A stretch of DNA of 64,000 nt from Fibrobacterota bacterium (GCA_947466585.1 CANIEU010000001.1:48414-112413); one strand, 5' to 3'; shown: positions 29,467-41,290, counted from the first letter of the stretch. The notes: a model not told the origin generated them from the sequence alone. Translations and numbers: made by a program.

Positions 29467-30072
29467 ATGCTCCGAATTTCTGAAATATTTTACTCACTCC
29501 AGGGTGAAGGGTTCCATGCAGGAACGCCTGCGATTTTCATCCGCGGCGCGGGCTGCAATCTCGCCTGTGATTTCTGTGACACCGACTTTTCTCTGAAGGA
29601 AAAGTTGGAACCGGAGGAAATCGTCGCCCGCATCGCGGAGCATCCCGCGAAGTTCGTGGTGCTCACCGGCGGCGACCCCACCATTCAGGCCGAAGGCTTT
29701 CGCAAACTCACGGAGTTGCTCCACGCTCGCGGCTATTTCGTGACGATGGAGACCAACGGAACTTCAGAAGACACGCTCGGCGTGGATTGGGTCACGGTCA
29801 GCCCCAAGCTTTCGCAGGGAGGCGACTGGAAGCTGAAAACCGGAAACGAGCTGAAACTGGTATTCGAAGGACAGGATCTGACGTTCTTCGAAGTTTCCAA
29901 TTTTTCACACTATTTCCTTCAACCTAAAGAAATCCGCACGGGGCGCTTCGGCAAGGGCGAGCGGGACCTTGCCGCGACGCGCGCCGAGTGGGAACGCACC
30001 ATCGCCGCCGCGATGGCCCGCCCGCGCTGGAAGCTCTCGTTTCAGTTGCACAAGGAACTGGGCCTGCGCTGA
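29467..30072 (+). CDS. queE: 7-carboxy-7-deazaguanine synthase QueE (radical SAM)
   Basis: MLRISEIFYSLQGEGFHAGTPAIFIRGAGCNLACDFCDT Cx14CxxC motif; in the 3' part of the overlong ORF 28726..30072. Confidence 0.9.
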   Translation: MLRISEIFYSLQGEGFHAGTPAIFIRGAGCNLACDFCDTDFSLKEKLEPEEIVARIAEHPAKFVVLTGGDPTIQAEGFRKLTELLHARGYFVTMETNGTSEDTLGVDWVTVSPKLSQGGDWKLKTGNELKLVFEGQDLTFFEVSNFSHYFLQPKEIRTGRFGKGERDLAATRAEWERTIAAAMARPRWKLSFQLHKELGLR

Positions 30073-30157
30073 TTCCCGCCGGGTAGTTCCATCCGGTACT
30101 TCCATCGGGTGATTTCGACCGGAAACTATCTTTGGGCGCAGGATAAGGGGTTTCAGC

Positions 30158-30871
30158 GTGCCCGCGCCAATCATCAAAACGAAATTGAACCGCACCGCAC
30201 TGGTCGTCTTCTCGGGCGGTCAGGATTCCACCACGTGCCTGCACTGGGCGCTGCAAACCTTCGCATCCGTCGAAGGCGTTTTCTTCGATTACGGTCAGCG
30301 CCACGCTTCCGAAGAACGTGCGGCCCAAACCATCGCCTGGCGTCTCGGCATTCCTTTGCGCCGCTTCAAGCTCGACTTCTTCCGCGAGATGGGCGGCAAC
30401 GCGCTCACCGACAACTCGATGGCGATCTCCACCGAGAACGGAAGCCACGGGCTTCCCAACACCTTCGTGCCCGGCAGGAATCTCCTCTTCCTCACCCAGG
30501 CCGCCTCCTACGCCTACACGCGCAACATCCGCGACGTGGTCACCGGCGTGTGCCAGACCGACTTCAGCGGCTACCCCGATTGCCGGCACGAGACCTTGCG
30601 TGCCCTGCAGCGTGCGCTGCATCTCGGCCTTGGTTGGCCCGAAAGAGGGGGCATCTTCCGCATCCACACCCCGCTGATGTTCCGCACCAAGGCCGAGAGC
30701 GTCGCGCTCGCGCGGCGTTGGGGCGCGCTCGAGTCGCTGGCGTACAGCCACACCTGCTACGAAGGTTCCTTCCCACCCTGTGGAAAATGCCCGTCGTGCC
30801 TGCTGCGCGCGAAGGGCTTCGCAGAGGCGGGCGTGTCCGATCCGATTTTCTCACGACCCGCCGCAGAATAA
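30158..30871 (+). CDS. queC: 7-cyano-7-deazaguanine synthase QueC
   Basis: ALVVFSGGQDSTTCL PP-loop, C-terminal zinc Cys cluster (CYEGSFPPCGKCPSC). Confidence 0.9.
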   Translation: MPAPIIKTKLNRTALVVFSGGQDSTTCLHWALQTFASVEGVFFDYGQRHASEERAAQTIAWRLGIPLRRFKLDFFREMGGNALTDNSMAISTENGSHGLPNTFVPGRNLLFLTQAASYAYTRNIRDVVTGVCQTDFSGYPDCRHETLRALQRALHLGLGWPERGGIFRIHTPLMFRTKAESVALARRWGALESLAYSHTCYEGSFPPCGKCPSCLLRAKGFAEAGVSDPIFSRPAAE

Positions 30872-30917
30872 CCTGCGCACGTGCCGTCACCAGCGACCAC
30901 CGAACGGAAGAGTTGAC

Positions 30918-32516
30918 ATGGCCACCCCTCGATCCGCATCCTCCGCTGCTTCAGCTACACCCGAAACTGCGGATGCTTCCCGCGTCATCCCCACGGACCC
31001 GACGCATTACGATGTGTGCATCATCGGATCGGGGCCGGGCGGTTTTGCGGCGGCCATGCGCGGGTTCGACCTCGGTAAAAAAGTCTGCCTGATCGAAGGC
31101 GGGCACATCGGCGGCGCGGGCATCATGCACGGCGCCATGACCAGTAAAACCATGTGGGAACTGGCCAAGGACTACGCCAACGCTTCGTCCGTCGACCGCG
31201 GTTACCGCGCGGCGGGGCTCATGGTCGATTATCAGGCCGTGCGCGACACCATCATCCAGGCCGCCAAGGAGAAGCAGTACCAACTGCTCTCCCAGATCGA
31301 GACCTTCTCGCCTCCGCGCTGGCAGGGCATCGGATCGACCACGCTCAAACGCGGCTTCGCCCGCTTCCACGATGCCGACTCGGTGGACGTGTCGCTGCAC
31401 AACGGGCGCGAGGAACGCGTCACCGCCGACCACTTCATCATCGCCACCGGTTCGAAGCCGCGCAACTTCGGTGGCATCGTGGTGGACAACGAGCGCATCA
31501 TCAACTCCGACGGCGTGCTGTCGTTCCGGGAATTCCCCAAGCGCCTGCTGATCCTGGGCGCGGGCATCATCGGTTGCGAATACGCGAGCATGTTCTCGAA
31601 CTTCGCGCAGACCAAGGTGCACCTGCTCGACCGCCAACCGCGCATCATTCCTTTCGAAGACGAAGACATCAGCACCTTCGTGAGCCATAACCTCGAACAA
31701 AAAGGCGTGGTGATCCATCATAACGCTTTTTTACGCAGCATCACGCGGCATCCTGACTTTCTGGAAGTGGTGGTGGACTACGAGGGCGGTCGCAGCCAGG
31801 TGCTCGAAGTGGATGCGGCGCTGGTGTCGGTGGGTCGTATTCCCAACCTCGACATGCTCGGCCTCGAAAACATCGGCGTGTCTATCAATGCTCGCGGTGG
31901 TCTCGACACCGACTCCGACTGCCGGGTGCTCGCGACTGAAAAAGGCAACATTTACGCCGTGGGCGACGTGACGCAGCGTTCGGCCTTGTACAACGTCGCC
32001 GAAATGGAAGGTCGCTACGCGATCAAGGCCATGTTCGGCCGCAACAAATACCTGCTGCGCTACCACAACATGTCGACCATCATGTTCTTCAACCCCGAAG
32101 TCGCGGTGGTGGGCCTCAACGAGCAACAATGCCAGGCGCAAAAGATCCCCTACCGCGTGGCGTCGTATTCCAATGCGCTGGTGAACCGCGCCATCGCCAT
32201 GCGGCGCACCGACGGCTTCGTCAAAATCCTCGTCTCCGAAGACGGCCACAACCGCATCCTCGGCATGCGCGCCGCGGGCCCGCAGGCCAGCAGCACCATC
32301 ATGGTGGTCGCCAACCTGATGGATCAGGACAAGGGGCTCGAGGACATCATGAAGTCGATCCACCCGCATCCGTCGATCACCGAGGGCATTCAGGAATGCC
32401 TGCGCCTGATGATGGGCAAGTCGGTGTACAAACCGCTGGCCTTCCCCGAAGCCATGCGCATCCGCGCCTGGAGCCCTGAAAACGGGTATTCCGACGTGGA
32501 TATGATGCCGGCTTGA
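30918..32516 (+). CDS. FAD/NAD(P)-binding oxidoreductase (dihydrolipoamide dehydrogenase / SthA-like) lacking redox-active Cys
   Basis: YDVCIIGSGPGGFAAAMRG FAD Rossmann and GAGIIGCEYA NAD Rossmann motifs, C-terminal dimerisation domain; expected CxxxxC replaced by GGAGIMHGAMTSK. Confidence 0.75.
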   Translation: MATPRSASSAASATPETADASRVIPTDPTHYDVCIIGSGPGGFAAAMRGFDLGKKVCLIEGGHIGGAGIMHGAMTSKTMWELAKDYANASSVDRGYRAAGLMVDYQAVRDTIIQAAKEKQYQLLSQIETFSPPRWQGIGSTTLKRGFARFHDADSVDVSLHNGREERVTADHFIIATGSKPRNFGGIVVDNERIINSDGVLSFREFPKRLLILGAGIIGCEYASMFSNFAQTKVHLLDRQPRIIPFEDEDISTFVSHNLEQKGVVIHHNAFLRSITRHPDFLEVVVDYEGGRSQVLEVDAALVSVGRIPNLDMLGLENIGVSINARGGLDTDSDCRVLATEKGNIYAVGDVTQRSALYNVAEMEGRYAIKAMFGRNKYLLRYHNMSTIMFFNPEVAVVGLNEQQCQAQKIPYRVASYSNALVNRAIAMRRTDGFVKILVSEDGHNRILGMRAAGPQASSTIMVVANLMDQDKGLEDIMKSIHPHPSITEGIQECLRLMMGKSVYKPLAFPEAMRIRAWSPENGYSDVDMMPA

Positions 32517-32713
32517 GAAGGAGTCGGGTCGGTTTCGCATCCGCCGTATTCCCAACGTCCTCTTTCCCGCGCATCCCCGAAAAATCAGGCGATTTTTCGG
32601 CCCCGGGGAGTGCCGATATTATATTTGCCCTATCATTCATCCCCGCATAAAGCGCTGGTTCTGATCGTTTTACAAATCGATTCCCTGTGCTGTTTGCCGT
32701 TATTGGAGTCGTC

Positions 32714-34069
32714 ATGCCCGCCTTTCAACACATTCAGGTTCCCGCCAACGGTAAAGCCATCACGCTCAACCCGGCCAACGGCAAGTTGGTGGTTCCCGAG
32801 CACCCGATCATTCCCTTCATTGAGGGCGACGGCACGGGACCGGATATCTGGAAAGCCTCGCAGCACGTGATCGACGAGACCGTGCGCAAGGTTTACGGCG
32901 GCAAGCGCAAGATCGAGTGGATGGAAGTCTACGCCGGCGAAAAATCGCTTTCGGTGTACGGTGAGAACCAGTGGCTTCCCGAAGAGACGCTGACGGCTTT
33001 CAAGGAATACCTCGTCGGCATCAAGGGACCGTTGACCACGCCCGTGGGCGGCGGCATCACCTCGCTGAACGTGGCGCTGCGCCAGATCCTCGACCTCTAC
33101 GTCTGCCTGCGCCCGGTGCGCTGGTACACCGGCGTGCCCTCGCCCGTCAAGCACCCCGAGAAGGTCGACATGGTGATCTTCCGCGAGAACACCGAAGACA
33201 TTTACGCCGGCATCGAGTGGAAGGGCGGCAGCGAAGACGCCGCCAAGATGCTGGCTTTCCTCGAAAAGGAATACCCCAAGCAGTTCGCGAAGATCCGATT
33301 CGGCACCGAGAAGGCCTCGAAGGCCTGGCAGGGCTTGCTGGAATCGGTCGGCGTACCGGCCCGCACCGTGGGGGTGGACGTGGGCGTGGGCGTGAAGGCC
33401 GTCAGCCAACTCGGCACCGAACGCCTGATGTACAGCGCCATTGATTACGCCATTCGTCACAATCGCAAGAGCGTAACGATCGTGCACAAGGGCAACATCA
33501 TGAAGTTCACCGAGGGCGGCTTCCGCGACTGGAGCTACCGCGTGGCGAAGGAGTTCTTCGGCGCGGAACCCATCGACGGCGGTCCGTGGTGCAAGATCCC
33601 CGCAGGCAAGCCGGGCGCGGGCCTGATCATCAAGGACTCCATCGCCGACATCGCGCTGCAGCAGGTGCTGACGCGTCCCGAGGACTTCGACGTGATCGCC
33701 ACGCTGAACCTCAACGGCGACTATCTGTCGGACGCGCTCGCGGCCCAGGTGGGTGGCATCGGCATCGCGCCGGGCGGCAACATCAATTATCTGACGGGAC
33801 ACGCCATCTTCGAAGCGACTCACGGCACCGCGCCCAAGTATGCGAACCTCGACAAGGTGAACCCGGGTTCGGTCGTGCTTTCCGCAGTGATGATGCTCGA
33901 TCACATCGGGTGGACCGAGGCTGCCCGTGCGATCGAGAGCGCGCTGGAACAAACCATCGGCGCCAAAACGGTAACCTACGACTTCGCACGCCTCATGGAC
34001 GGCGCGAAAGAAGTGGGTTGCTTCGAGTTCGGGACGCTTGTGGCGAACGCGGTTCCCCAGTCGAATTAA
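32714..34069 (+). CDS. icd: NADP-dependent isocitrate dehydrogenase
   Basis: Prokaryotic ICDH signature [26 protein letters not shown]; start [10 protein letters not shown]. Confidence 0.9.
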
Positions 34070-34154
34070 TAGTGGGATAAGGACGAATACGGACGAATAC
34101 GGACGATCAAAAGCGAAGACGGCAACGACGGGTCAGGAAGCAAGGAGTACTCTC

Positions 34155-35342
34155 ATGGCGGGCGATGCAAACACGGACGGCAAAGAGGTTTTGTTCACGA
34201 TCACGCGTGACCACCTCGACACGGGTTTGCGAGGGTTTCCCGTGGGCACCTGTCCCATCAGCGACGTCGATCCGATCAAGGGATTGAGTTATGGCGGTAT
34301 TCCTATCGCCGAACTCGCCCACCTCGATCCGGAAGAGGTCATCCACCTCTTGCTGCGCAAAGAGCTGCCCGACGCGGCCAAGCTAGCCGTGTTCCACGGC
34401 GAACTGCTGGGCCAAGGTCCGCTGAATCCCGGTGTGCTCAAGTTGCTCGAGAGCTTCCCCCGCAAAGGCCATCCGATGAAATGGCTGCTCGGCGGTTTGG
34501 TGGCGATGGGCATGTTCGAAAACGCGGGGGATTACCGCAAGGATTGCCTGCGCGTGATCGCGCAATTGCCCGAACTCGTGGCGGCGATCTTTCGTATCCG
34601 CTCGGGCTGGGGCGCGCCGATCGCTCCGAAACCCGAATTGGGCTGGGTGGAGAATTTCGTGCACATGCTCGGCGCACCCGGCGCATCGCCCGATCTCACG
34701 CGGCTGTTGCGCGTGTTCATGATTCTGCACTTCGACCACGGCGGCGGCAACCTTTCGACCTTCGTGGGCAAGGCCGTGGCCTCGGGCCACGAAGACATGT
34801 ATGGATCGCTGGCCGGCGCCATGGCCGGCCTCGCGGGCCCGTTGCACGGTATGGCCAACCAGGAGTGCCTGCGCTTCGTGAAGGAAGTCGCTGCGGAGAT
34901 CAAGGATCCCACCGATCTTGAAGAAGTCAGCAAGTATGTGGAGAACCGTCTCGCCACCGGCGGCGTGCTGTTCGGCTTCGGCCACGCGGTGCTCCGCGTC
35001 GAAGATCCGCGCGCGACAGTGCAGTACGCCCTCGGCGAAGAAATCGCCCAGAACGATGGTCTGTTCCGCCTCGCAGTTTCGCTGCGCACTGCGGGAGTCG
35101 AAGCTCTGAAGAAGCGCCCGAAGGTCAGTAATCCGTATCCGAACGTCGACGCCGTGTCGGGGACGTTGCTGAACGCCTGCGGCCTGACCGACGAGACGTA
35201 CTATACGGTGCTATTCGGCTTGTCGCGCTGCGTAGGCATTGCGTCGCAGATCGTGTGGGAACGCACCGAGGCGCGGGGTGGCAAGGGAATGCCCATCGTA
35301 CGGCCGAAGTATGTGTACACCGGGCCTGCGGTTAAGGGGTGA
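34155..35342 (+). CDS. gltA: Citrate synthase (small, about 395 aa type)
   Basis: GPLHGMANQE and HGGGN active-site motifs; start MAGDANTDGKEV. Confidence 0.9.
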   Translation: MAGDANTDGKEVLFTITRDHLDTGLRGFPVGTCPISDVDPIKGLSYGGIPIAELAHLDPEEVIHLLLRKELPDAAKLAVFHGELLGQGPLNPGVLKLLESFPRKGHPMKWLLGGLVAMGMFENAGDYRKDCLRVIAQLPELVAAIFRIRSGWGAPIAPKPELGWVENFVHMLGAPGASPDLTRLLRVFMILHFDHGGGNLSTFVGKAVASGHEDMYGSLAGAMAGLAGPLHGMANQECLRFVKEVAAEIKDPTDLEEVSKYVENRLATGGVLFGFGHAVLRVEDPRATVQYALGEEIAQNDGLFRLAVSLRTAGVEALKKRPKVSNPYPNVDAVSGTLLNACGLTDETYYTVLFGLSRCVGIASQIVWERTEARGGKGMPIVRPKYVYTGPAVKG

Positions 35343-35498
35343 TTTTTAAGGAAATGGGTGTTTGGAAGGGGCTCTCGGAAGGGGGCCCTTTCTTTTTAGT
35401 CAGAATTCCGCGAGGTTCCGTTACGAGGTTTACGTCCTGGATATTGGGGTTCTATAATGGGAGCAATGCAATTCAGCGGAAAGGTTTAAGGTCCTAAT

Positions 35499-36053
35499 AT
35501 GACTAAGCAAATAGTCTTCCTTGGAATCCTGATTTTATCTCTCCTCAGCCTTTCAAATGCTGGGCAAAATACGGTTAGCCAAAGCGGAGCAACTGTTGAG
35601 AAATGGAAGTCCTTAGAAAACTGGCGAATGTTAAGGAATGACATGGGTCAGAAAAGTGTGAGAAAAATATTGGGGGAGCCAGAACGTATCAATGGCGGAG
35701 TAGTAGCTTTTTGGAACTATCCAAATGGCGGCGACGTTACCTTCATGGATGGCAAAGTGTCTGGATGGAGTGAGCCACTTAGATGGGATGAGGGATCAGG
35801 AAACGCCTCCTCATCAGATATTGATCCAGATAAATTAGTGCTAGGAATTTTACTGGTTGCGATTCTCTTCTATTTTACACCGATTCTGTGGGTGTTGTTT
35901 TCCAGCCGTTCAACTGGTGGGGCTAAATTCGGTTGGTTCCTTATAACCATTGTGTTTTCTTGGTTAGGATTCGCAGCCTTTTTGATTTTGACGCAAACGG
36001 CAAAGGCCCGTAAGCAATTAGAATCGAAAACATACGGAGGACAAAGTGAGTAG
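35499..36053 (+). CDS. Secreted/membrane protein: BamE (SmpA/OmlA)-like domain plus C-terminal two-TM PLDc_N-like segment
   Basis: Signal peptide; W.L..GM....V...LG.P..I...W.Y..GG.V.F.....V.GW.EP pattern; C-terminal ILFYFTPILWVLF...FGWFLITIVFSWLGFAAFLI. Confidence 0.5.
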   Translation: MTKQIVFLGILILSLLSLSNAGQNTVSQSGATVEKWKSLENWRMLRNDMGQKSVRKILGEPERINGGVVAFWNYPNGGDVTFMDGKVSGWSEPLRWDEGSGNASSSDIDPDKLVLGILLVAILFYFTPILWVLFSSRSTGGAKFGWFLITIVFSWLGFAAFLILTQTAKARKQLESKTYGGQSE

Positions 36054-36405
36054 ATATCATTTCGCAATTTTGATTTCGCTCCTTGTGTCAGCAACCCAAG
36101 CATCTTCACAAACCAGCTACGATTCCATGTCGCAACAGCTTGAAGAGAAGATCATATTACTTGAAAAACGGATTTCCACAATTGAAGATCAATTGAGGGA
36201 AGGGAAAGCACCGATTCAAGCTCCTCCGGGAAAAGCGAGCTGGCGACAGCTTAAAAAGGGCATGTCTGAGGCCGAAGTCGAAGGATTGCTAGGCAGCCCT
36301 GCCAAGATTGAAAATTATGGATCCTTCAGTATTTGGAACTATCAGAAGGGTGGTTCTGTTCAATTCAACGAGGACGCATTAGTCAAAGGTTGGTTCGAGC
36401 CCTGA
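36046..36405 (+). CDS. Secreted BamE-like protein, paralog of preceding ORF, with coiled-coil N-region
   Basis: Signal peptide MSRYHFAILISLLVSATQASSQ; shares the W..L..GM..EV..LLG.P..I...W.Y.GG.V.F....V.GW.EP pattern with 35499..36053. Confidence 0.5.
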   Translation: MSRYHFAILISLLVSATQASSQTSYDSMSQQLEEKIILLEKRISTIEDQLREGKAPIQAPPGKASWRQLKKGMSEAEVEGLLGSPAKIENYGSFSIWNYQKGGSVQFNEDALVKGWFEP

Positions 36406-36430
36406 CTCAAATTCTCTTACGCTATGACTT

Positions 36431-36593
36431 CGGTCTGATGTATGAGACGTACCACACGATGCTGTTCGGCCTGTTGCGCTGCGTGGGCATTGCGTCGCAG
36501 ATCGTGTGGGAACTCACCGAGGCGCGGGGTGACAAGGGAATGCCCATCGTGCGGCCGAAGTACGTGTACACGTGGCCGGCTGTAAAGGGGTGA
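36431..36593 (+). pseudogene. Duplicated 3' fragment of the citrate synthase gene (last roughly 50 codons) with its downstream sequence
   Basis: Translation ...YHTMLFGLLRCVGIASQIVWELTEARGDKGMPIVRPKYVYTWPAVKG closely matches citrate synthase C-terminus; similarity continues about 90 nt past the stop. Confidence 0.7.
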
Positions 36594-36893
36594 TTTTTAC
36601 AGGAAATTGGTGTGTGGAAGGGGCTCCTAGAAGGGGGCCCTTTCCTTTTTAGTCAGAGTTTTTAGAGTCCCCGTGAAGGGGTTTACGAAGTAAGAGCCTA
36701 GGTTTATACTAAAGCTCGTTCACCTAACGACTGAGGCATTTAATCTGCAGTGCTAGTCAAGGTTATTACCACTAGACCAATTTCTGGCCAGATAACCCCG
36801 TAAACACAAATTATCAAAGGCGCCCATCCAATTTGTTGGTTTCGGCCATATGGCAAACCCTACAACTACTCAGAATATGACAGGCAGGCGGAA

Positions 36894-37808
36894 TTGATGA
36901 AGGCAATACAGATATATAAGCCTGGCTATCTCTATGTACTAGTTCACCCATCTAATCCAAATCTCTATAAGATCGGAGTAACTGTCCTTCAACCTGAGAA
37001 GCGATTGGCCCAGCATAACAATCAACACAACAAATACGCGGGCAAGATCGTCAAAGAGTCGGGTCAAAAATGGGAGCTTAAGGCACACATTTCCGTCCCC
37101 GACCCATATTGGGCTGAAAGTGCCTTTTGGGGAGCTACGCATTTCCCGGAAATTCCTTATCGAAAAGGCATCGAAATCGAAATAATGACTTGGGATTTGG
37201 TGCAAATTGGTTTGGAGGCGGCAAAACAGGCCGGGGTTCGACCAACCCCAGCGTCTTACCCTGATTATGTGTATGCCTATACGGCGTCAGTCCAAAAACG
37301 ACTGGAAGGCAGAGGCATTTCCCTCTTAGGATACGTGCGAAGCATGGTGAGCGGAAGATCCGATTTCCGATGCGAAAATGGACACGAATGGCACACGACT
37401 CCTAAACTCGTAGCTGATGGAGAGGGTTGTCCCATTTGTGGGATTGGCACACAGAGTTTAACAGAGATCAGAGAGCGTATTAAGGCCGGCGTTATATTCT
37501 TACTGACACATGAAGGTAGGCCTGGATATTTTAAAATTGGGCTGCATTTAGGCGCTATCGAAAATGCTTTCCAAAACTGGCCTTTTGGCGATTGGCAGTG
37601 TCATCGTTATAGGAATGTGGAGGAAGTCGAACTAGCCATTACAGTTATTTGGGAGTTACTAGGATTGCCTCTTCCCCATGACCAAGAAGCATTCATGATG
37701 GATAAAAAGGAAGCGGAAAAAGCTTTCAGAGATTTGACTTACGTTATCCAGGAACGGACTGCCGCCACCGGGAGGGTCAAAGAGAAACCCAATGACTCCA
37801 ATCGCTAA
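36894..37808 (+). CDS. Tandem T5orf172/MUG113-type GIY-YIG-superfamily protein with an internal zinc ribbon
   Basis: GYLYVLVHPSNPNLYKIGVTVLQPEKRLAQHN matches T5orf172 N-terminal consensus; degenerate repeat GVIFLLTHEGRPGYFKIGLH; CENGHEWHTT...CPICG between them. Confidence 0.55.
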   Translation: MMKAIQIYKPGYLYVLVHPSNPNLYKIGVTVLQPEKRLAQHNNQHNKYAGKIVKESGQKWELKAHISVPDPYWAESAFWGATHFPEIPYRKGIEIEIMTWDLVQIGLEAAKQAGVRPTPASYPDYVYAYTASVQKRLEGRGISLLGYVRSMVSGRSDFRCENGHEWHTTPKLVADGEGCPICGIGTQSLTEIRERIKAGVIFLLTHEGRPGYFKIGLHLGAIENAFQNWPFGDWQCHRYRNVEEVELAITVIWELLGLPLPHDQEAFMMDKKEAEKAFRDLTYVIQERTAATGRVKEKPNDSNR

Positions 37809-38235
37809 ACAAACCGCCCCTTCGGTCAAATCCTTCCTCGCCTCGCTCGACGACGAACAGACCCAAGCGGATGCGAAAATGCTCGTCGCTCTGATGAAGC
37901 GCATCAGCGGGAAAACCCCAAAGATCTGGAACGTCGGCACGATCGGCTTCGACACCTACCACTACAAGTACGACAGCGGACGCGAGGGCGACAACGCCGT
38001 CCTCAGTTTTTACCCCCGCAAGGGCAAGTACACCATTTACCTGATGGACGGCTGCGCACGCCATTCCAAATTGTTGGAAAAACTCGGGAAGCACACCACA
38101 AGCCGCGTTTGCCTCTACTTCAAACGACTCAGCGATTTGGATTTAACCGTCCTGGAAAAAATCCTGGAACAGTCCTACGCCTACATCAAGGCGCAAGACG
38201 GGAACATGGGCCAAGTGCAAGAGGGATGGCGATAA
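37792..38235 (+). CDS. DUF1801 (YdhG-like) domain protein, overlapping the preceding gene by 17 nt
   Basis: 147 aa; pattern consistent with DUF1801. Confidence 0.55.
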   Translation: MTPIAKQTAPSVKSFLASLDDEQTQADAKMLVALMKRISGKTPKIWNVGTIGFDTYHYKYDSGREGDNAVLSFYPRKGKYTIYLMDGCARHSKLLEKLGKHTTSRVCLYFKRLSDLDLTVLEKILEQSYAYIKAQDGNMGQVQEGWR

Positions 38236-38294
38236 GGGCCATCAAGCGCTCGAACGCAAACGAATCGTCGCAGACAATTCTGCGCTGACTGGAT

Positions 38295-38457
38295 CCCGGC
38301 CTTCGCCGGGATGACAGCGTTTGGGGCAAAACACAGGTCATTCCTCCAGGCCGGAGTTTACCCCCGCGAAGGCGGGGGCCGGGATGACAGCGTTGGGAGC
38401 AAAACTCGAGTCCTTCCTTCGGACCAGAGATTACCCCCTTCCGCTCGAAGGATGGGG
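38295..38457. repeat. About 2.5 degenerate tandem copies of an approximately 70-bp unit, each starting with a GC hairpin followed by gggatgacagcgtt(t)ggg(g/a)gcaaaac
   Basis: cccggccttcgccggg / cccccgcgaaggcggggg / ccttccgctcgaagg hairpins read directly; at island boundary. Confidence 0.45.
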
Positions 38458-38600
38458 AGTCGGCGATAGACCTCGACCCCTATAAACCGTTAAATTCCCC
38501 TAAAAACCGCTGTTCAAAAACCACTTGCGCAATTGATCGGTTGCGCTTATATTTGCTACCGAATGGTTGCTGATAACATATCGCGACCCGAAGGAGCCCC

Positions 38601-38978
38601 ATGAGACGAGACATCTTCCAGGCTATTGCAGACCCGACGCGGCGGGCCATTGTGATGCTGCTCGCCGTGCACGCGATGACGCCCAACGCCATGGCCGAGC
38701 ATTTCGACACCAGTCGGCAGGCCGTCTCCAAACACATCCACATTCTGCTGGAATGCGACCTACTCGATCAGGAACAACAAGGCCGGGAAATCCGCTATCA
38801 CCTAAGGGCCGACAAGATGAAACAAATCGAACAGTGGCTCGAGCAATTCAAAGCCTTGATGGCCGCGCGGTTCACGCAACTCGACGAGGTGCTGGCCCAA
38901 CTGAAATCCCGAACCAACACTCAAACTCCAACCAACCCCACCACCCTCACTACCATTACAAAAGCGAGAAAGACATGA
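38601..38978 (+). CDS. ArsR/SmtB-family winged-helix transcriptional regulator
   Basis: IFQAIADPTRRAIVMLLAVHAMTPNAMAEHFDTSRQAVSKHIHIL HTH region. Confidence 0.8.
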   Translation: MRRDIFQAIADPTRRAIVMLLAVHAMTPNAMAEHFDTSRQAVSKHIHILLECDLLDQEQQGREIRYHLRADKMKQIEQWLEQFKALMAARFTQLDEVLAQLKSRTNTQTPTNPTTLTTITKARKT

Positions 38979-39478
38979 GCTCGGAAAAAATCTTTAACTT
39001 CGTCGTCGACAAAGACAATCTCCGCGTCACCATCGAACGCTCCTTCGACGCCCCCCGCGACCTCGTGTGGGCCGCATGGACCGAGGCCGAACTGCTCGAT
39101 CAATGGTGGGGGCCCAAGCCGTGCCGCGCGGAGACGAAATCCATGGACTTCTCCGAAGGCGGACGCTGGCTCTACGCCATGGTCATCCCCGGCGTCGGAA
39201 AGAAATGGGACTCGAAGAGCTTCCTGAAGATCGACCCCAAGGACAGCTTCACGTATCGCAGCGCGTTTTGCGATGAAAACGGAATCGTGGCCCCGGAGAC
39301 GAAGAGTTCGGTGTGGGTGAATTCCTTCACAGAGCGCGACGGAGTCACCGTGGTCACCAACGTCATCACCAACGATTCGCTCGAACGCCTTGAGCTCATG
39401 ATTCAGATGGGCTTCAAGGAAGGCTATACCGCGGGTCTCGATCAGCTTGAAGAGTTGCTGGCGGACCTTCAGAAATAG
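38975..39478 (+). CDS. SRPBCC / AHSA1 (activator of Hsp90 ATPase homolog)-like protein, coupled to ArsR gene (ATGA overlap)
   Basis: RVTIERSFDAPRDLVWAAWTEAELLDQWWGPKP N-terminus typical of AHSA1/SRPBCC proteins paired with ArsR regulators. Confidence 0.7.
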   Translation: MSSEKIFNFVVDKDNLRVTIERSFDAPRDLVWAAWTEAELLDQWWGPKPCRAETKSMDFSEGGRWLYAMVIPGVGKKWDSKSFLKIDPKDSFTYRSAFCDENGIVAPETKSSVWVNSFTERDGVTVVTNVITNDSLERLELMIQMGFKEGYTAGLDQLEELLADLQK

Positions 39479-39526
39479 GGAACATCCGAAAGCCCAATAA
39501 CCAGCGGCGGGGAGACTCGCCGTTGG

Positions 39527-40786
39527 TTGCGGACATGGGCTACCTTTCCCTCGATGCCCCCCGCCTCGAAATCAGAAGTCCATCCCGCCCGCACCGAATC
39601 TCCAGTATGGGGTGCAGGCTGGGTGATGTTCCTCAGCTTCGCAGGCCTCTCCGCAACGCAGTTCCACGGCTACCTCTTTGAAGGCAAAGGCTTCTCGCCC
39701 TTGCAGATCGGCTTCCTGCTCGGTGCCGGATACGCCGCAGGGCTGCTCGCACCGGCCGTGCAGGTCAACGCCATCCGCCGCCTGCGGGGCCCGCGCATCC
39801 CGCTCGCCATCGTGCTCGCCGGGGCCGGCACCGCCATGGCCCTGTTGCCGTGGGCCAACCACTTCGGCTCCGTGCTCTTCCTGTTTTTCTGCACCCTGTT
39901 TTGCTCCGCGGGCATCCACCCCCTCACCGCCGCCTGCGCGCTCGAGGCCACGCGCACGCGCGGGCAGGGCACCTACTTCTTGATCCGCAGCCTCGGCACA
40001 GCGGGATTTTTAGCGGGATGCATCGCCAGTTTCTTTCAGCCGGGCGTCGACAAACTGCCGTGGTTGTACTTCGGATTCGGCGCGGCCTTTTGGTGCACCA
40101 TTCCCCTTGCGCTCAACCGTTTTCGCCCGAGCGATCCGCGTCAAGCGCCCGAAGACATCCTCGTCACGCCGCTCCCGCGCCGCACTCCCGGATTCGGCCG
40201 CGCGTTGCGCCTGCTCTCCGCCCCGCGCGCCAAGCGTTTGTTATGGACGCTCGGTGTGATGAATTTCGCCAACGCCATGGCCACCCTGGTGCAAGGCAAC
40301 TATCTCGTCTCGCGTTTCGACGGCGGGCAAAGTTCCATCAGCTTCGCATGGATCGTGGCGACCACGGTGGAGATACCGCTGATGTTTTTATGCGCCTGGA
40401 TGGTGCGTCGCTTCGGCCTGCGCACCGTGATCGGATTCGGGCTGCTCGGCACCACCATCAAGCTGGCATTGCTTGGAGCGGCCGACAGTTACGGCGTGTT
40501 TCTCGCCGGACTGGCCTTCCACGGCTGTTTCTTCTCGGGCGCGCTCGTGGGATTCAATCTCTTCATCGACAAACATTTCGCCATCGCCGATCGCCCTTCG
40601 TTGCAATCGCTGGGCGCTCTCTTTTATACCGGATTGCCCTCGGCATTCGGCGGACTCACCGCAGGGGTGCTCTGGCACTTCTTCGGCTTGCGCTCGGTGT
40701 ACGTGTTCACGGCGCTGGTGGCGATCGGGGCGGGAGCGTACACGCTCAGGCTGCTGCCGATGCTGCCGGGACGGGAGAGACGGTAG
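39527..40786 (+). CDS. MFS transporter (12 TM); start may be downstream; last codons and stop lie in repeat arm
   Basis: multi-TM hydrophobic profile across 419 aa. Confidence 0.7.
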   Translation: MRTWATFPSMPPASKSEVHPARTESPVWGAGWVMFLSFAGLSATQFHGYLFEGKGFSPLQIGFLLGAGYAAGLLAPAVQVNAIRRLRGPRIPLAIVLAGAGTAMALLPWANHFGSVLFLFFCTLFCSAGIHPLTAACALEATRTRGQGTYFLIRSLGTAGFLAGCIASFFQPGVDKLPWLYFGFGAAFWCTIPLALNRFRPSDPRQAPEDILVTPLPRRTPGFGRALRLLSAPRAKRLLWTLGVMNFANAMATLVQGNYLVSRFDGGQSSISFAWIVATTVEIPLMFLCAWMVRRFGLRTVIGFGLLGTTIKLALLGAADSYGVFLAGLAFHGCFFSGALVGFNLFIDKHFAIADRPSLQSLGALFYTGLPSAFGGLTAGVLWHFFGLRSVYVFTALVAIGAGAYTLRLLPMLPGRERR

Positions 40787-40888
40787 ACGTTAGTAGGTGG
40801 ACGGTAGAGAACTCCGAATAAGAAATTTTGAAACCAAGTACAAGTTGATGCGCTTTGTTTTTGCTACCGTCTACCGACTACCGTCTCT
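40775..40888. repeat. Palindromic GGTAG-unit element (gagagacggtagacgttagtaggtggacggtagag ... ctaccgtctaccgactaccgtctc); both arms supply stop codons to the convergent flanking genes
   Basis: TAG of MFS gene at 40784-40786 and TAG (minus) of ArsC-like gene at 40880-40878 both lie in the arms. Confidence 0.65.
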
Positions 40889-41240
40889 TTGACCAAGTTC
40901 TTCCGAACAACACCTCGTCAAACCCCACCGTCGCGCTTTTACCATCTGTGACCAAGGGACGCTTGATCAGGCGACCGTTGCCCGCCAAAAGGTCGAACGC
41001 AGCCGCGTCCGTCATGCTGCCGATCTTGTCCTTAATGCCCAAGAGCTTGTATTGCTCACCGCTGGTGTTGAACAACTTGCGCAGCGGCAACCCGGATTGC
41101 TCCAGAATCTTTTTCAATTCCATTTTGGAGGGCGGGGTTTCGGTGATGTCCGCAAAACCGTACGAGACTCCGGCGGTCTCCAGTGCCTTTTCTGCCTTGC
41201 GGCAGGTCGAACATTTCTTGTAGCCGTAGAATTTGAGCAT
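40878..41240 (-). CDS. ArsC/Spx-family (glutaredoxin-like arsenate reductase-related) protein
   Basis: MLKFYGYKKCSTCRKAEKALETAG CxxC N-terminus typical of ArsC/Spx/YffB family; C-terminal part of ORF 40878..41870. Confidence 0.75.
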   Translation of the reverse strand: MLKFYGYKKCSTCRKAEKALETAGVSYGFADITETPPSKMELKKILEQSGLPLRKLFNTSGEQYKLLGIKDKIGSMTDAAAFDLLAGNGRLIKRPLVTDGKSATVGFDEVLFGRTWSKRR

Positions 41241-41290
41241 CGGAGAAAAAGTAGTAGGTAGACGGTAGTAGGTAGTAGGTAGATGAAAGC
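41241..41290. repeat. Partial/degenerate GGTAG-unit repeat (gtagtaggtagacggtagtaggtagtaggtagatg), same-orientation units only
   Basis: read directly, adjacent to ArsC-like start. Confidence 0.4.

What the first reader, a model, noticed from the sequence alone, without database searches (positions are those of the whole stretch)
36691..38280. Lower-GC two-gene module: tandem T5orf172 (GIY-YIG superfamily) protein with zinc ribbon plus overlapping DUF1801 gene; candidate homing/defence-type accessory system
The 304-aa protein at 36894..37808 begins with a near-consensus T5orf172/MUG113 motif (GYLYVLVHPSNPNLYKIGVTVLQPEKRLAQHN). It contains a second, degenerate copy (GVIFLLTHEGRPGYFKIGLH), and a C-x4-H...C-x2-C ribbon lies between them. 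The next gene (DUF1801, 37792..38235) overlaps it by 17 nt, implying co-translation. The segment is visibly AT-richer than its surroundings, has tataat-type promoters, and lies next to the duplicated citrate synthase end and a set of hairpin repeats. T5orf172 domains are GIY-YIG nuclease relatives found in phage genomes and bacterial accessory islands. I am not aware of a described two-gene system of a tandem-T5orf172 protein with DUF1801, but that is from memory, not a search.
Basis: partly seen in the sequence, partly recalled or inferred. Interest (0 to 1): 0.65.

Follow-up and report, generated by a model that had tools for sequence, protein, structure and literature searches.

The report
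Solitary GIY-YIG nuclease, not a two-gene system
The nuclease-like gene is real and belongs to a small, uncharacterised family that has been transferred between many bacterial phyla, but the DUF1801 gene it overlaps is an ordinary native neighbour, so the proposed new two-gene system does not exist.

Summary

The two-gene interpretation fails:
- DUF1801 has host-like codon composition (GC3 0.74, against 0.45 for the nuclease gene).
- In four related metagenomic lineages it sits in the same conserved gene order (icd, citrate synthase, a variable slot, DUF1801, ArsR, AHSA1, MFS). None of them has the nuclease.
- None of about 30 other-species loci carrying the nuclease family has a DUF1801 neighbour, or any conserved neighbour.
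- The overlap is an insertion junction. The first ~12 DUF1801 codons are new sequence.

The nuclease belongs to a compact family of ~300-aa proteins (55-65% identity across more than ten phyla). It is nearly absent from phages and plasmids. Its GC stays near 48% whatever the host. It often lies among restriction, Mrr, GmrSD, PARIS/Gabija-like and integrase genes. It is most likely a stand-alone DNA endonuclease carried as accessory, probably defence, cargo. Moderate-to-low interest: a new variant of a known kind.

The parts
36897..37808 (+). Gene for the 303-aa stand-alone nuclease-like protein (ORF opens at TTG 36894; the ATG at 36897 is used by public gene calls).
   Evidence: ORF. P0001 is 100% identical. 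There are 531 homologues, 55-65% identical. GC 0.466, GC3 0.45. DNA similarity to other family members is confined to 36918-37762.
36924..37232 (+). N-terminal T5orf172/GIY-YIG domain (residues ~10-112), predicted to be catalytically competent.
37263..37451 (+). Linker helix plus treble-clef zinc ribbon (residues ~123-185; C159-x3-H163-x14-C178-x2-C181), inferred to be the DNA-binding module.
   Evidence: The four ligands are invariant. DUF4379 E 5e-4, below cut-off. phrog_681 'endonuclease' E 6.7e-12 on residues 134-216. Residues 132-207 are ~40% identical to endonucleases of T5-like and Klebsiella phages. The module is repeated 4-14 times in many other proteins. BFVD hits are to CapR-homology and treble-clef proteins.
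37458..37778 (+). C-terminal degenerate GIY-YIG-like domain (residues ~188-294), predicted inactive.
37792..38235 (+). DUF1801 gene: the native flanking gene, not part of a system with the nuclease. Its first ~12 codons (37792-~37829) are junction-derived.
   Evidence: PF08818. GC3 0.74. Orthologues 78-84% identical sit in conserved synteny in L053, L055, L056 and L068 without the nuclease. Homology to relatives starts at residue ~11.
36428..36697 (+). Relic copy of the citrate synthase 3' end, its terminator hairpin (36616-36645) and a promoter-like box (36682-36710), immediately upstream of the nuclease gene.
   Evidence: Direct repeat of 35177-35445, 85-87% identical. Ten non-synonymous changes at residues invariant in relatives. 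Terminator- and promoter-like hits.
35398..37830 (+). Variable slot between the citrate synthase terminator and the conserved part of DUF1801. It is low in GC and has no collinear counterpart in the closest relative.
   Evidence: blastn against L053: collinear over 30001-35397 and 37837-41250 only. GC profile. Other relatives carry different cargo in this slot.

Best explanation
Shown: the gene at 36897..37808 is a single, self-contained accessory gene that sits in a lineage-specific variable slot between citrate synthase and DUF1801. DUF1801 is the resident downstream gene. The insertion replaced its first ~12 codons and supplied a new in-frame ATG, which produces the 17-nt overlap.

The protein has three parts:
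1. An N-terminal T5orf172/GIY-YIG domain that keeps the catalytic Tyr, Tyr, Arg, His-Asn and Glu set.
2. A CapR/DUF4379-type treble-clef zinc ribbon of the kind phage T5orf172 homing endonucleases use to bind DNA.
3. A C-terminal duplicate of the nuclease fold that has lost those residues.

Inferred mechanism: the zinc ribbon, perhaps helped by the dead domain, positions the protein on DNA, and the single live GIY-YIG site cuts it.

Inferred role: the family is solitary, highly conserved, spread by horizontal transfer, nearly absent from phages and plasmids, and often found among restriction and defence genes. Its most likely role is therefore a stand-alone anti-invader (defence-island) endonuclease rather than a phage-style homing gene. 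I put the defence role itself at about 0.4.
For: Real gene and family:
-.
- Only about four full-length clusters exist at 50% identity, so the family is compact.

Foreign origin:
- GC3 is 0.45 against 0.74-0.84 for neighbours.
- Family GC is 0.478 +/- 0.03 across hosts whose flanks range from 0.36 to 0.66.
- Hosts include Marinobacter, Chlorobium, Polynucleobacter, Scalindua, Nitrospirota, Omnitrophota, Negativicutes and a Methanobacteriaceae MAG.

DUF1801 is native:
- Synteny in L053, L055, L056 and L068.
- N-terminal junction.

No partner gene:
- DUF1801 tblastn and HMM searches hit none of the other-species nuclease loci.
- No neighbour cluster is shared beyond close relatives.
- DNA similarity stops at the CDS ends.

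Fold and motifs.

Zinc module shared with phage endonucleases; PMC10448857.

T5orf172 nuclease activity has been shown for the phage protein Odn/Gp88 and depends on the conserved Glu (PMC8263062).

Defence-type neighbourhoods:
- GmrSD, NOV_C, Eco29kI, Mrr and a methylase.
- GmrSD_C, HEPN and HsdR.
- An integrase island with a methylase.
- AAA_15 + DUF4276 and Mrr.
- Pooled over 25 loci: Mrr_cat x3, AAA_15/21/23 x3-4 (matching AriA, GajA and Old models), methylases, integrase x2, Fic x2.
- The same slot in relatives holds HNH_3 + DUF4062, or RhuM/Fic/Mrr-nSTAND1.

Distribution: one partial hit in 2.9 million viral contigs, no full-length hit in 50,697 phage records, none in plasmids.
Against: - No activity or phenotype data exist for any member.
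- The defence association is qualitative. Many neighbours are housekeeping genes, and no enrichment statistic against a background was computed.
- The PADLOC match to candidate PDC-S57 covers only the 36-residue N-terminal motif.
- The window copy departs from the family at 8 of 105 highly conserved columns (family mean 2.3), mostly in the C-domain and including E248->I. This particular copy may be drifting.
- With no terminator between the genes, DUF1801 expression may now depend on the nuclease gene's transcription. A functional link acquired locally cannot be fully excluded.
Confidence: 0.72

Rival explanations
1. One reading: the tandem-T5orf172 protein and DUF1801 form a co-translated two-gene homing or defence system.
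For: 17-nt overlap, same strand, and no terminator-like site between the genes. Every contig that carries this exact DUF1801 allele also carries the nuclease gene upstream.
Against: DUF1801 has host-like GC3. It is syntenic in four relatives that lack the nuclease. No DUF1801 lies near the nuclease in about 30 other-species loci. The overlap lies in junction-derived sequence. The exact-allele result is circular, because that allele contains the junction.
Confidence: 0.04
2. A free-standing homing endonuclease gene. The nuclease cuts a site in or near a conserved gene (here the citrate synthase 3' end) in genomes that lack it, and repair copies the gene in.
For: The T5orf172 + zinc-finger architecture is that of phage homing endonucleases, which cluster next to essential genes (PMC10448857). 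The gene lies directly downstream of a relic citrate synthase 3' end. It is a single gene with no conserved flanks and host-independent GC. Several copies are truncated or frameshifted (L021, L030, L033, L036).
Against: Family members sit at unrelated sites with unrelated neighbours, and none of the others is next to citrate synthase. The family is almost absent from phages, where such genes thrive. Conservation is very high across phyla (66% mean column identity), which is unlike rapidly decaying selfish genes. The duplicated citrate synthase ends bracket orf184 and orf119, not the nuclease gene.
Confidence: 0.17
3. A domesticated DNA-binding protein (CapR-like repressor or regulator) that no longer cuts DNA.
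For: CapR is a documented domestication of this kind of endonuclease (PMC8096241; PMC10448857). One of the two GIY-YIG-like domains is clearly dead.
Against: The N-domain keeps every canonical catalytic position invariant across 119 sequences, which is not expected if catalysis were dispensable.
Confidence: 0.05
4. In this genome the gene is a decaying passenger with no current function.
For: Eight deviations at 105 highly conserved columns against a family mean of 2.3 +/- 2.0, including loss of the near-invariant E248. It is the most divergent member, at most 65% identical to any other.
Against: The ORF is intact and full length. The catalytic and zinc residues are intact. The identical protein was recovered from at least 14 contigs in several samples.
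Confidence: 0.1

Closest known systems
Phage T5orf172-family homing endonucleases with CapR/DUF723/DUF4379-type zinc-finger DNA-binding modules (ICP1, T5-like phages; Barth et al. 2023, PMC10448857)
   Same: T5orf172 (GIY-YIG subfamily) nuclease domain joined to a treble-clef zinc module. The zinc module is ~40% identical to those of T5-like and Klebsiella phage endonucleases. It matches phrog_681 and BFVD CapR-homology proteins.
   Different: Cellular, not phage: one partial hit in IMG/VR and no full-length hit in 50,697 phage genomes. It has a single zinc module rather than 'beads on a string'. It carries an extra C-terminal dead GIY-YIG-like domain. It is not consistently placed next to essential genes.
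I-TevI (T4 td intron GIY-YIG homing endonuclease)
   Different: I-TevI ends in a helix-turn-helix DNA-binding domain (from my own knowledge, not tested here) and is intron-encoded. Here the C-terminal domain is a degenerate nuclease fold and the gene is free-standing in a bacterial chromosome.
SLX1 / UPF0213 (URI-type GIY-YIG nucleases)
   Different: Sequence similarity is marginal (E 0.07). SLX1 is a eukaryotic structure-specific nuclease that needs SLX4. There is no evidence of orthology.
Odn/Gp88 of phage ICP1 (PMC8263062)
   Same: An experimentally shown T5orf172 nuclease that serves as a single-protein, sequence-directed weapon against a rival genetic element. This is a precedent for a stand-alone defensive T5orf172 enzyme.
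   Different: Odn targets DNA through a RepA_N-derived domain and is phage-encoded. There is no zinc ribbon and no tandem dead domain.
PADLOC candidate PDC-S57
   Same: Weak match to the N-terminal GIY...YIG motif (E 2.7e-5).
   Different: Only 36 of 221 profile positions align. It is not the same family.

Membership tests
Pfam T5orf172 (PF10544), GIY-YIG superfamily | Profile match above the curated gathering score. | tested here: met
   33.3 bits against a cut-off of 20, E 7.5e-8, residues 11-77. Most family members carry a precomputed PF10544.
GIY-YIG nuclease superfamily | Conserved catalytic positions: the GIY Tyr, the YIG Tyr, Arg, His/Asn in helix 1, and Glu. | tested here: met
   N-domain counts out of 119: Y11 112, Y13 117, Y24 110, R36 119, H40 119, N41 119, E74 118. 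The motif aligns to the GIY-YIG protein 1ywl. The C-domain does NOT meet this feature.
GIY-YIG nuclease superfamily | GIY-YIG alpha/beta fold. | tested here: met
GIY-YIG nuclease superfamily | Metal-dependent DNA cleavage. | not testable with these tools
   Requires biochemistry.
Pfam DUF4379 (PF14311) treble-clef zinc finger | Profile match above the gathering score. | tested here: inconclusive
   Window protein: 20.6 bits against a cut-off of 24.5. Several close homologues carry a precomputed PF14311. The zinc ligands are invariant.
Pfam DUF1801 (PF08818), for the downstream gene | Profile match above the gathering score. | tested here: met
   36.6 bits against 27.2. More than 3,300 homologues at E <= 1e-10.
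Two-gene system (T5orf172 + DUF1801) | The two genes co-occur as neighbours across unrelated genomes. | tested here: not met
   No other-species nuclease locus has DUF1801 by tblastn or HMM. Zero of four DUF1801-syntenic relatives have the nuclease.
Two-gene system (T5orf172 + DUF1801) | Shared evolutionary history or composition of the two genes. | tested here: not met
   GC3 0.45 against 0.74. The junction lies inside the 5' end of DUF1801.
Homing endonuclease gene | Insertion at a defined, recurrent target site, with occupied and empty alleles among relatives. | tested here: not met
   Family members lie at unrelated loci with unrelated neighbours. Relatives' citrate synthase-DUF1801 slots are filled with other cargo rather than being empty.
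Homing endonuclease gene | Cleavage of the cognate empty site, followed by gene conversion. | not testable with these tools
   Requires experiments.
Anti-phage defence system (single gene) | Preferential location in defence islands. | tested here: inconclusive
   All four neighbourhoods looked up by protein contain restriction/defence or integrase genes. The pooled neighbours include Mrr, OLD/Gabija/PARIS-like ATPases and methylases. No background-corrected enrichment was computed.
Anti-phage defence system (single gene) | Protection against phage or plasmid when expressed. | not testable with these tools
   Requires experiments.
PADLOC PDC-S57 | Full-length match to the profile. | tested here: not met
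   Residues 9-44 match profile positions 3-37 of 221 only.

The most novel reading that the evidence does not exclude
The ~300-aa family is an undescribed single-protein anti-phage or anti-plasmid nuclease built as an intramolecular pseudo-dimer: one live and one dead GIY-YIG domain clamped by a zinc ribbon. It has spread by horizontal transfer through more than ten bacterial phyla and possibly into an archaeon. The window copy is one cargo of a defence hotspot downstream of citrate synthase.
Probability: 0.3. Interest if true: 0.55.

Novelty: new variant of a known kind. Interest (0 to 1): 0.3.

Why it matters
The claimed new two-gene system would have mattered, but it is not there. That saves follow-up effort.

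What remains is a tidy, testable candidate. It is a compact, strongly conserved, widely transferred cellular family that reuses the phage T5orf172 + zinc-finger nuclease design and adds a dead copy of its own catalytic fold. If it turns out to be a defence enzyme, it would add a single-gene GIY-YIG system to the known repertoire. It would also give an example of a live/dead tandem nuclease architecture.

The locus also shows how an insertion junction can mimic translational coupling. In addition, the interval downstream of citrate synthase is a cargo-swapping hotspot in this uncultured lineage.

Tried and rejected
- Exact look-up of the 304-aa TTG-start product found nothing. The ATG-start 303-aa form is the recorded one.
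- NCBIfam has no model for either protein.
- PADLOC gave only a motif-level hit to PDC-S57, rejected as membership.
- Rfam over the whole window gave no family at gathering score. The 38.3-kb repeats occur only locally.
- Plasmid collection: no match.
- The AlphaFold-DB Foldseek library was unavailable.
- PDB sequence search with the C-domain profile gave only chance-level hits.
- Literature searches for T5orf172, alone or with 'defense', found phage homing endonuclease, Odn and CapR work, but nothing on this cellular family or on a DUF1801 pairing.
- I considered an integrase-type island bounded by the duplicated citrate synthase ends. I rejected it as an explanation for the nuclease gene, because the repeats bracket orf184 and orf119 and there is no integrase.
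- I considered that copy B of the citrate synthase end was imported from a distant relative. This is not supported, because it is closest to copy A (86% against 79-83%).
- The organism could not be named. The closest named citrate synthases, at 70-75% identity, are from Fibrobacteres/Fibrobacteria MAGs.

Full report
**1. What is in the sequence**

The ORF list gives a 304-aa frame at 36894..37808 that opens with TTG and is followed at once by ATG. Public gene calls use the ATG at 36897, giving 303 aa (P0001, 100% identical). The 147-aa ORF at 37792..38235 overlaps it by 17 nt.

Pfam results:
- The first protein is T5orf172 (PF10544): E 7.5e-8, 33.3 bits against a cut-off of 20, residues 11-77. 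It also gives sub-threshold GIY-YIG, MUG113 and DUF4379 (treble-clef zinc finger, residues 159-182) matches.
- The second protein is DUF1801 (PF08818): E 6.1e-9.

Other libraries:
- PHROGs adds phrog_681 'endonuclease' on residues 134-216, E 6.7e-12.
- PADLOC gives only a 36-residue motif match to candidate PDC-S57.
- NCBIfam gives nothing.

It is C159-x3-H163-x14-C178-x2-C181 in 303-aa numbering, and all four ligands are invariant in 119 family sequences.

**2. The second, degenerate copy**

Pfam does not detect it in the window protein. Three other lines of evidence support it:
- Family profiles of residues 1-125 and 186-303 align with HHalign probability 97%, E 1.2e-10, over 86 columns.
- Three of 18 family C-domains reach PF10544 weakly.
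- The AlphaFold model (pLDDT 88.8, pTM 0.60) shows the same strand-strand-helix-strand-helix order twice.

The N-domain keeps Y11, Y13, Y24, R36, H40, N41 and E74 almost without exception. The C-domain has V/I, C and V at the Tyr positions and no Arg/His/Asn equivalents. The protein therefore has one live and one dead nuclease fold, with a zinc ribbon between them.

**3. Composition**

The low-GC block is not 'the two genes'. GC3 values:

| Gene | GC3 |
|---|---|
| nuclease gene | 0.45 |
| orf184 | 0.43 |
| orf119 | 0.45 |
| DUF1801 | 0.74 |
| ArsR-type gene | 0.69 |
| AHSA1 | 0.79 |
| citrate synthase | 0.78 |
| isocitrate dehydrogenase | 0.84 |

The compositional break falls at the nuclease/DUF1801 junction.

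**4. DUF1801 is native**

The closest DUF1801 proteins (78-88% identical) were traced to their contigs. L053, L055, L056 and L068 all show the same order: isocitrate dehydrogenase, citrate synthase, a variable slot, DUF1801, usually Glyoxalase and DUF2975, then ArsR-type HTH, AHSA1, MFS and ArsC. None has the nuclease.

At the DNA level the window is collinear with L053 (about 84% identity) over 30001-35397 and again over 37837-41250. Nothing in between is collinear except the relic citrate synthase end and a weak orf184 match.

Protein and DNA alignments show that homology of the window DUF1801 to its orthologues starts at about residue 11, near position 37830. The first ~12 codons, including the ATG at 37792 that creates the overlap, are not homologous. 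The overlap is therefore a product of the insertion junction, not a sign of an evolved operon.

**5. The nuclease has no conserved partner**

The family search found 531 proteins, nearly all 288-318 aa and 55-65% identical to the window protein. In the exhaustive search at 50% clustering, only about four full-length clusters exist. The remaining hits are fragments, or proteins with 4-14 repeats of the zinc module.

Thirty-five genome loci were fetched. They come from Marinobacter, Chlorobium/Chlorobiales, Micavibrio, Polynucleobacter, Gallionellaceae, Devosia, Scalindua, Nitrospirota, Omnitrophota, FCPU426, Desulfobacteraceae, Lucifera and Acidaminococcales (Negativicutes), Coxiellaceae, Oligoflexia and one Methanobacteriaceae MAG.

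- DUF1801 searches by tblastn and by a family HMM hit only the window's own strain and the DUF1801-anchored relatives.
- All-against-all clustering of flanking ORFs found no neighbour shared beyond close relatives.
- Nucleotide similarity between the window and other members starts at 36918 and ends by 37762, inside the CDS.
- The gene's GC is 0.478 +/- 0.03, whatever the flanking GC (0.36-0.66).

**6. Where the family lives**

Neighbourhoods with precomputed Pfam labels:
- L006: GmrSD_N, NOV_C, a DNA methylase, Eco29kI-type GIY-YIG restriction enzyme, Mrr and HNH, between two YjbQ fragments.
- L042: GmrSD_C, DUF3800, HEPN and HsdR.
- L046/L048: a tyrosine-integrase island with a methylase.
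- L049: AAA_15 + DUF4276 (PARIS-like) and Mrr/NA-iREase1.

I pooled the three ORFs on each side at 25 distinct loci. The commonest Pfam families are AAA_23/SMC_N (4), Mrr_cat (3), AAA_21/AAA_15 (3), methyltransferases, N6_N4_Mtase (2), Phage_integrase (2) and Fic (2). PADLOC models hit include mad2/mad3, HEC-01A, AriA, AbiLi, Old, GajA, PDC-S04 and type II MTases. Housekeeping genes are also present. No background-corrected statistic was computed, so this evidence is suggestive only.

The family is nearly absent from mobile replicons:
- No full-length match in 50,697 phage records. Only residues 132-207, the zinc module, match endonucleases of T5-like and Klebsiella phages at about 40% identity.
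- No plasmid match.
- One partial hit in IMG/VR.

BFVD structure matches are to phage T5orf172, CapR-homology and treble-clef proteins.

**7. The slot itself**

In relatives the citrate synthase-DUF1801 interval carries different cargo:
- L053: an orf184-like protein and DUF4177.
- L055: a 703-aa protein, HNH_3 and DUF4062.
- L056: a hydrolase, an orf184-like protein, DUF1993 and DUF1579.
- L068: a 71-aa protein and a hydrolase.
- L058-L060 (citrate synthase 89% identical): RhuM, a redoxin, Fic/DOC and an 898-aa Mrr_cat-nSTAND1 protein directly downstream of citrate synthase.

So this is a cargo-swapping site that often holds defence-type genes.

In the window, the citrate synthase 3' end, its terminator and a promoter-like box occur twice: 35177-35445 and 36428-36697, 85-87% identical. 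The first copy is followed by orf184 and orf119, the second by the nuclease gene. Copy B is a relic. It has ten replacements at residues invariant in relatives, and it is closer to copy A (86%) than to any relative (79-83%). How the two cassettes came to be stacked is unresolved.

**8. Mechanism**

From the literature:
- T5orf172 is a GIY-YIG subfamily. In phage ICP1 it makes up about half of the putative homing endonucleases, usually fused to CapR/DUF723-type zinc-finger DNA-binding modules (PMC10448857).
- Nuclease activity that depends on the conserved Glu has been shown for Odn/Gp88, a stand-alone T5orf172 enzyme used against a rival element (PMC8263062).

Inferred for this protein: the zinc ribbon binds DNA, the N-domain cuts, and the dead C-domain serves as a scaffold, a second DNA contact or a pseudo-dimer partner.

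The distribution is cellular, solitary, strongly conserved, horizontally spread and frequently in defence islands.

The window copy is intact and was recovered identically from at least 14 contigs in several samples. However, it deviates at 8 of 105 highly conserved columns (family mean 2.3 +/- 2.0). Six of these are in the dead domain, including E248->I. Some drift in this copy is possible.

**9. Verdict**

The interpretation as a novel two-gene module is not. What is present is a new, uncharacterised variant of a known kind of enzyme (a T5orf172/GIY-YIG zinc-finger nuclease), inserted next to an unrelated native gene. Interest is moderate to low (0.3). The best remaining upside is that the family proves to be a new single-gene defence nuclease with a live/dead tandem architecture.

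Noticed in passing
window 35177-35445 and 36428-36697: The citrate synthase 3' end (~165 nt), its terminator hairpin and a TTTACG-N17/18-TATAAT/TATACT box are present twice, 85-87% identical. The downstream copy is a decayed relic, with replacements at residues invariant in relatives. It is closer to the upstream copy than to any relative. Each copy precedes a different low-GC cassette.
   Followed up: partly
window 35499-36053 and 36046-36405; L053:7125-7571; L056:2735-2989; L007:7600-8010: orf184 and orf119 are paralogous small, probably exported proteins that share a ~55-aa domain (W..WR.L...M....V..ILG.P....GG....W.Y.NGG.V.F....V..WEEP; weak BamE match). Homologues occupy the same slot after citrate synthase in two relatives. 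One lies directly upstream of the nuclease-family gene in a Marinobacter MAG, which is either coincidence or co-transfer.
   Followed up: partly
window 38293-38440: Two ~61-73-nt tandem repeat units with GC-rich hairpins (82% identical) sit between DUF1801 and the ArsR-type gene. Relatives L053, L055 and L068 carry a Glyoxalase gene at this position, followed in L053 and L055 by a DUF2975 gene. The repeat occurs nowhere else in the window and matches no Rfam family.
   Followed up: partly
L055:6635-8029; L058:8476-14569 (also L059, L060): In related lineages the interval downstream of citrate synthase holds HNH_3 + DUF4062, or RhuM, Fic/DOC and an 898-aa Mrr_cat-nSTAND1 protein. This site looks like a defence and accessory-gene hotspot in the lineage.
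   Followed up: partly
window 37638-37640 (codon 248 of the nuclease) and other C-domain codons: The window protein has Ile where 115 of 119 family members have Glu (the counterpart of the catalytic Glu in the dead domain). It deviates at 8 of 105 highly conserved columns against a family mean of 2.3.
   Followed up: yes
L035:7420-8238: A family member 53% identical to the window protein lies on a contig binned as Methanobacteriaceae (flank GC 0.36). This is either bacteria-to-archaea transfer or a binning error.
   Followed up: no
L006:1-14282: The closest homologue (65% identical) sits in a ~14-kb island between two YjbQ gene fragments. The island also carries HNH, Mrr_cat, GmrSD_N, NOV_C, a DNA methylase and an Eco29kI-type GIY-YIG restriction enzyme.
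   Followed up: no
L021, L022, L030, L033, L036, L057: Several family copies are truncated or split by frameshifts (partial tblastn coverage or two ORF pieces), so pseudogenisation is not rare in this family.
   Followed up: no
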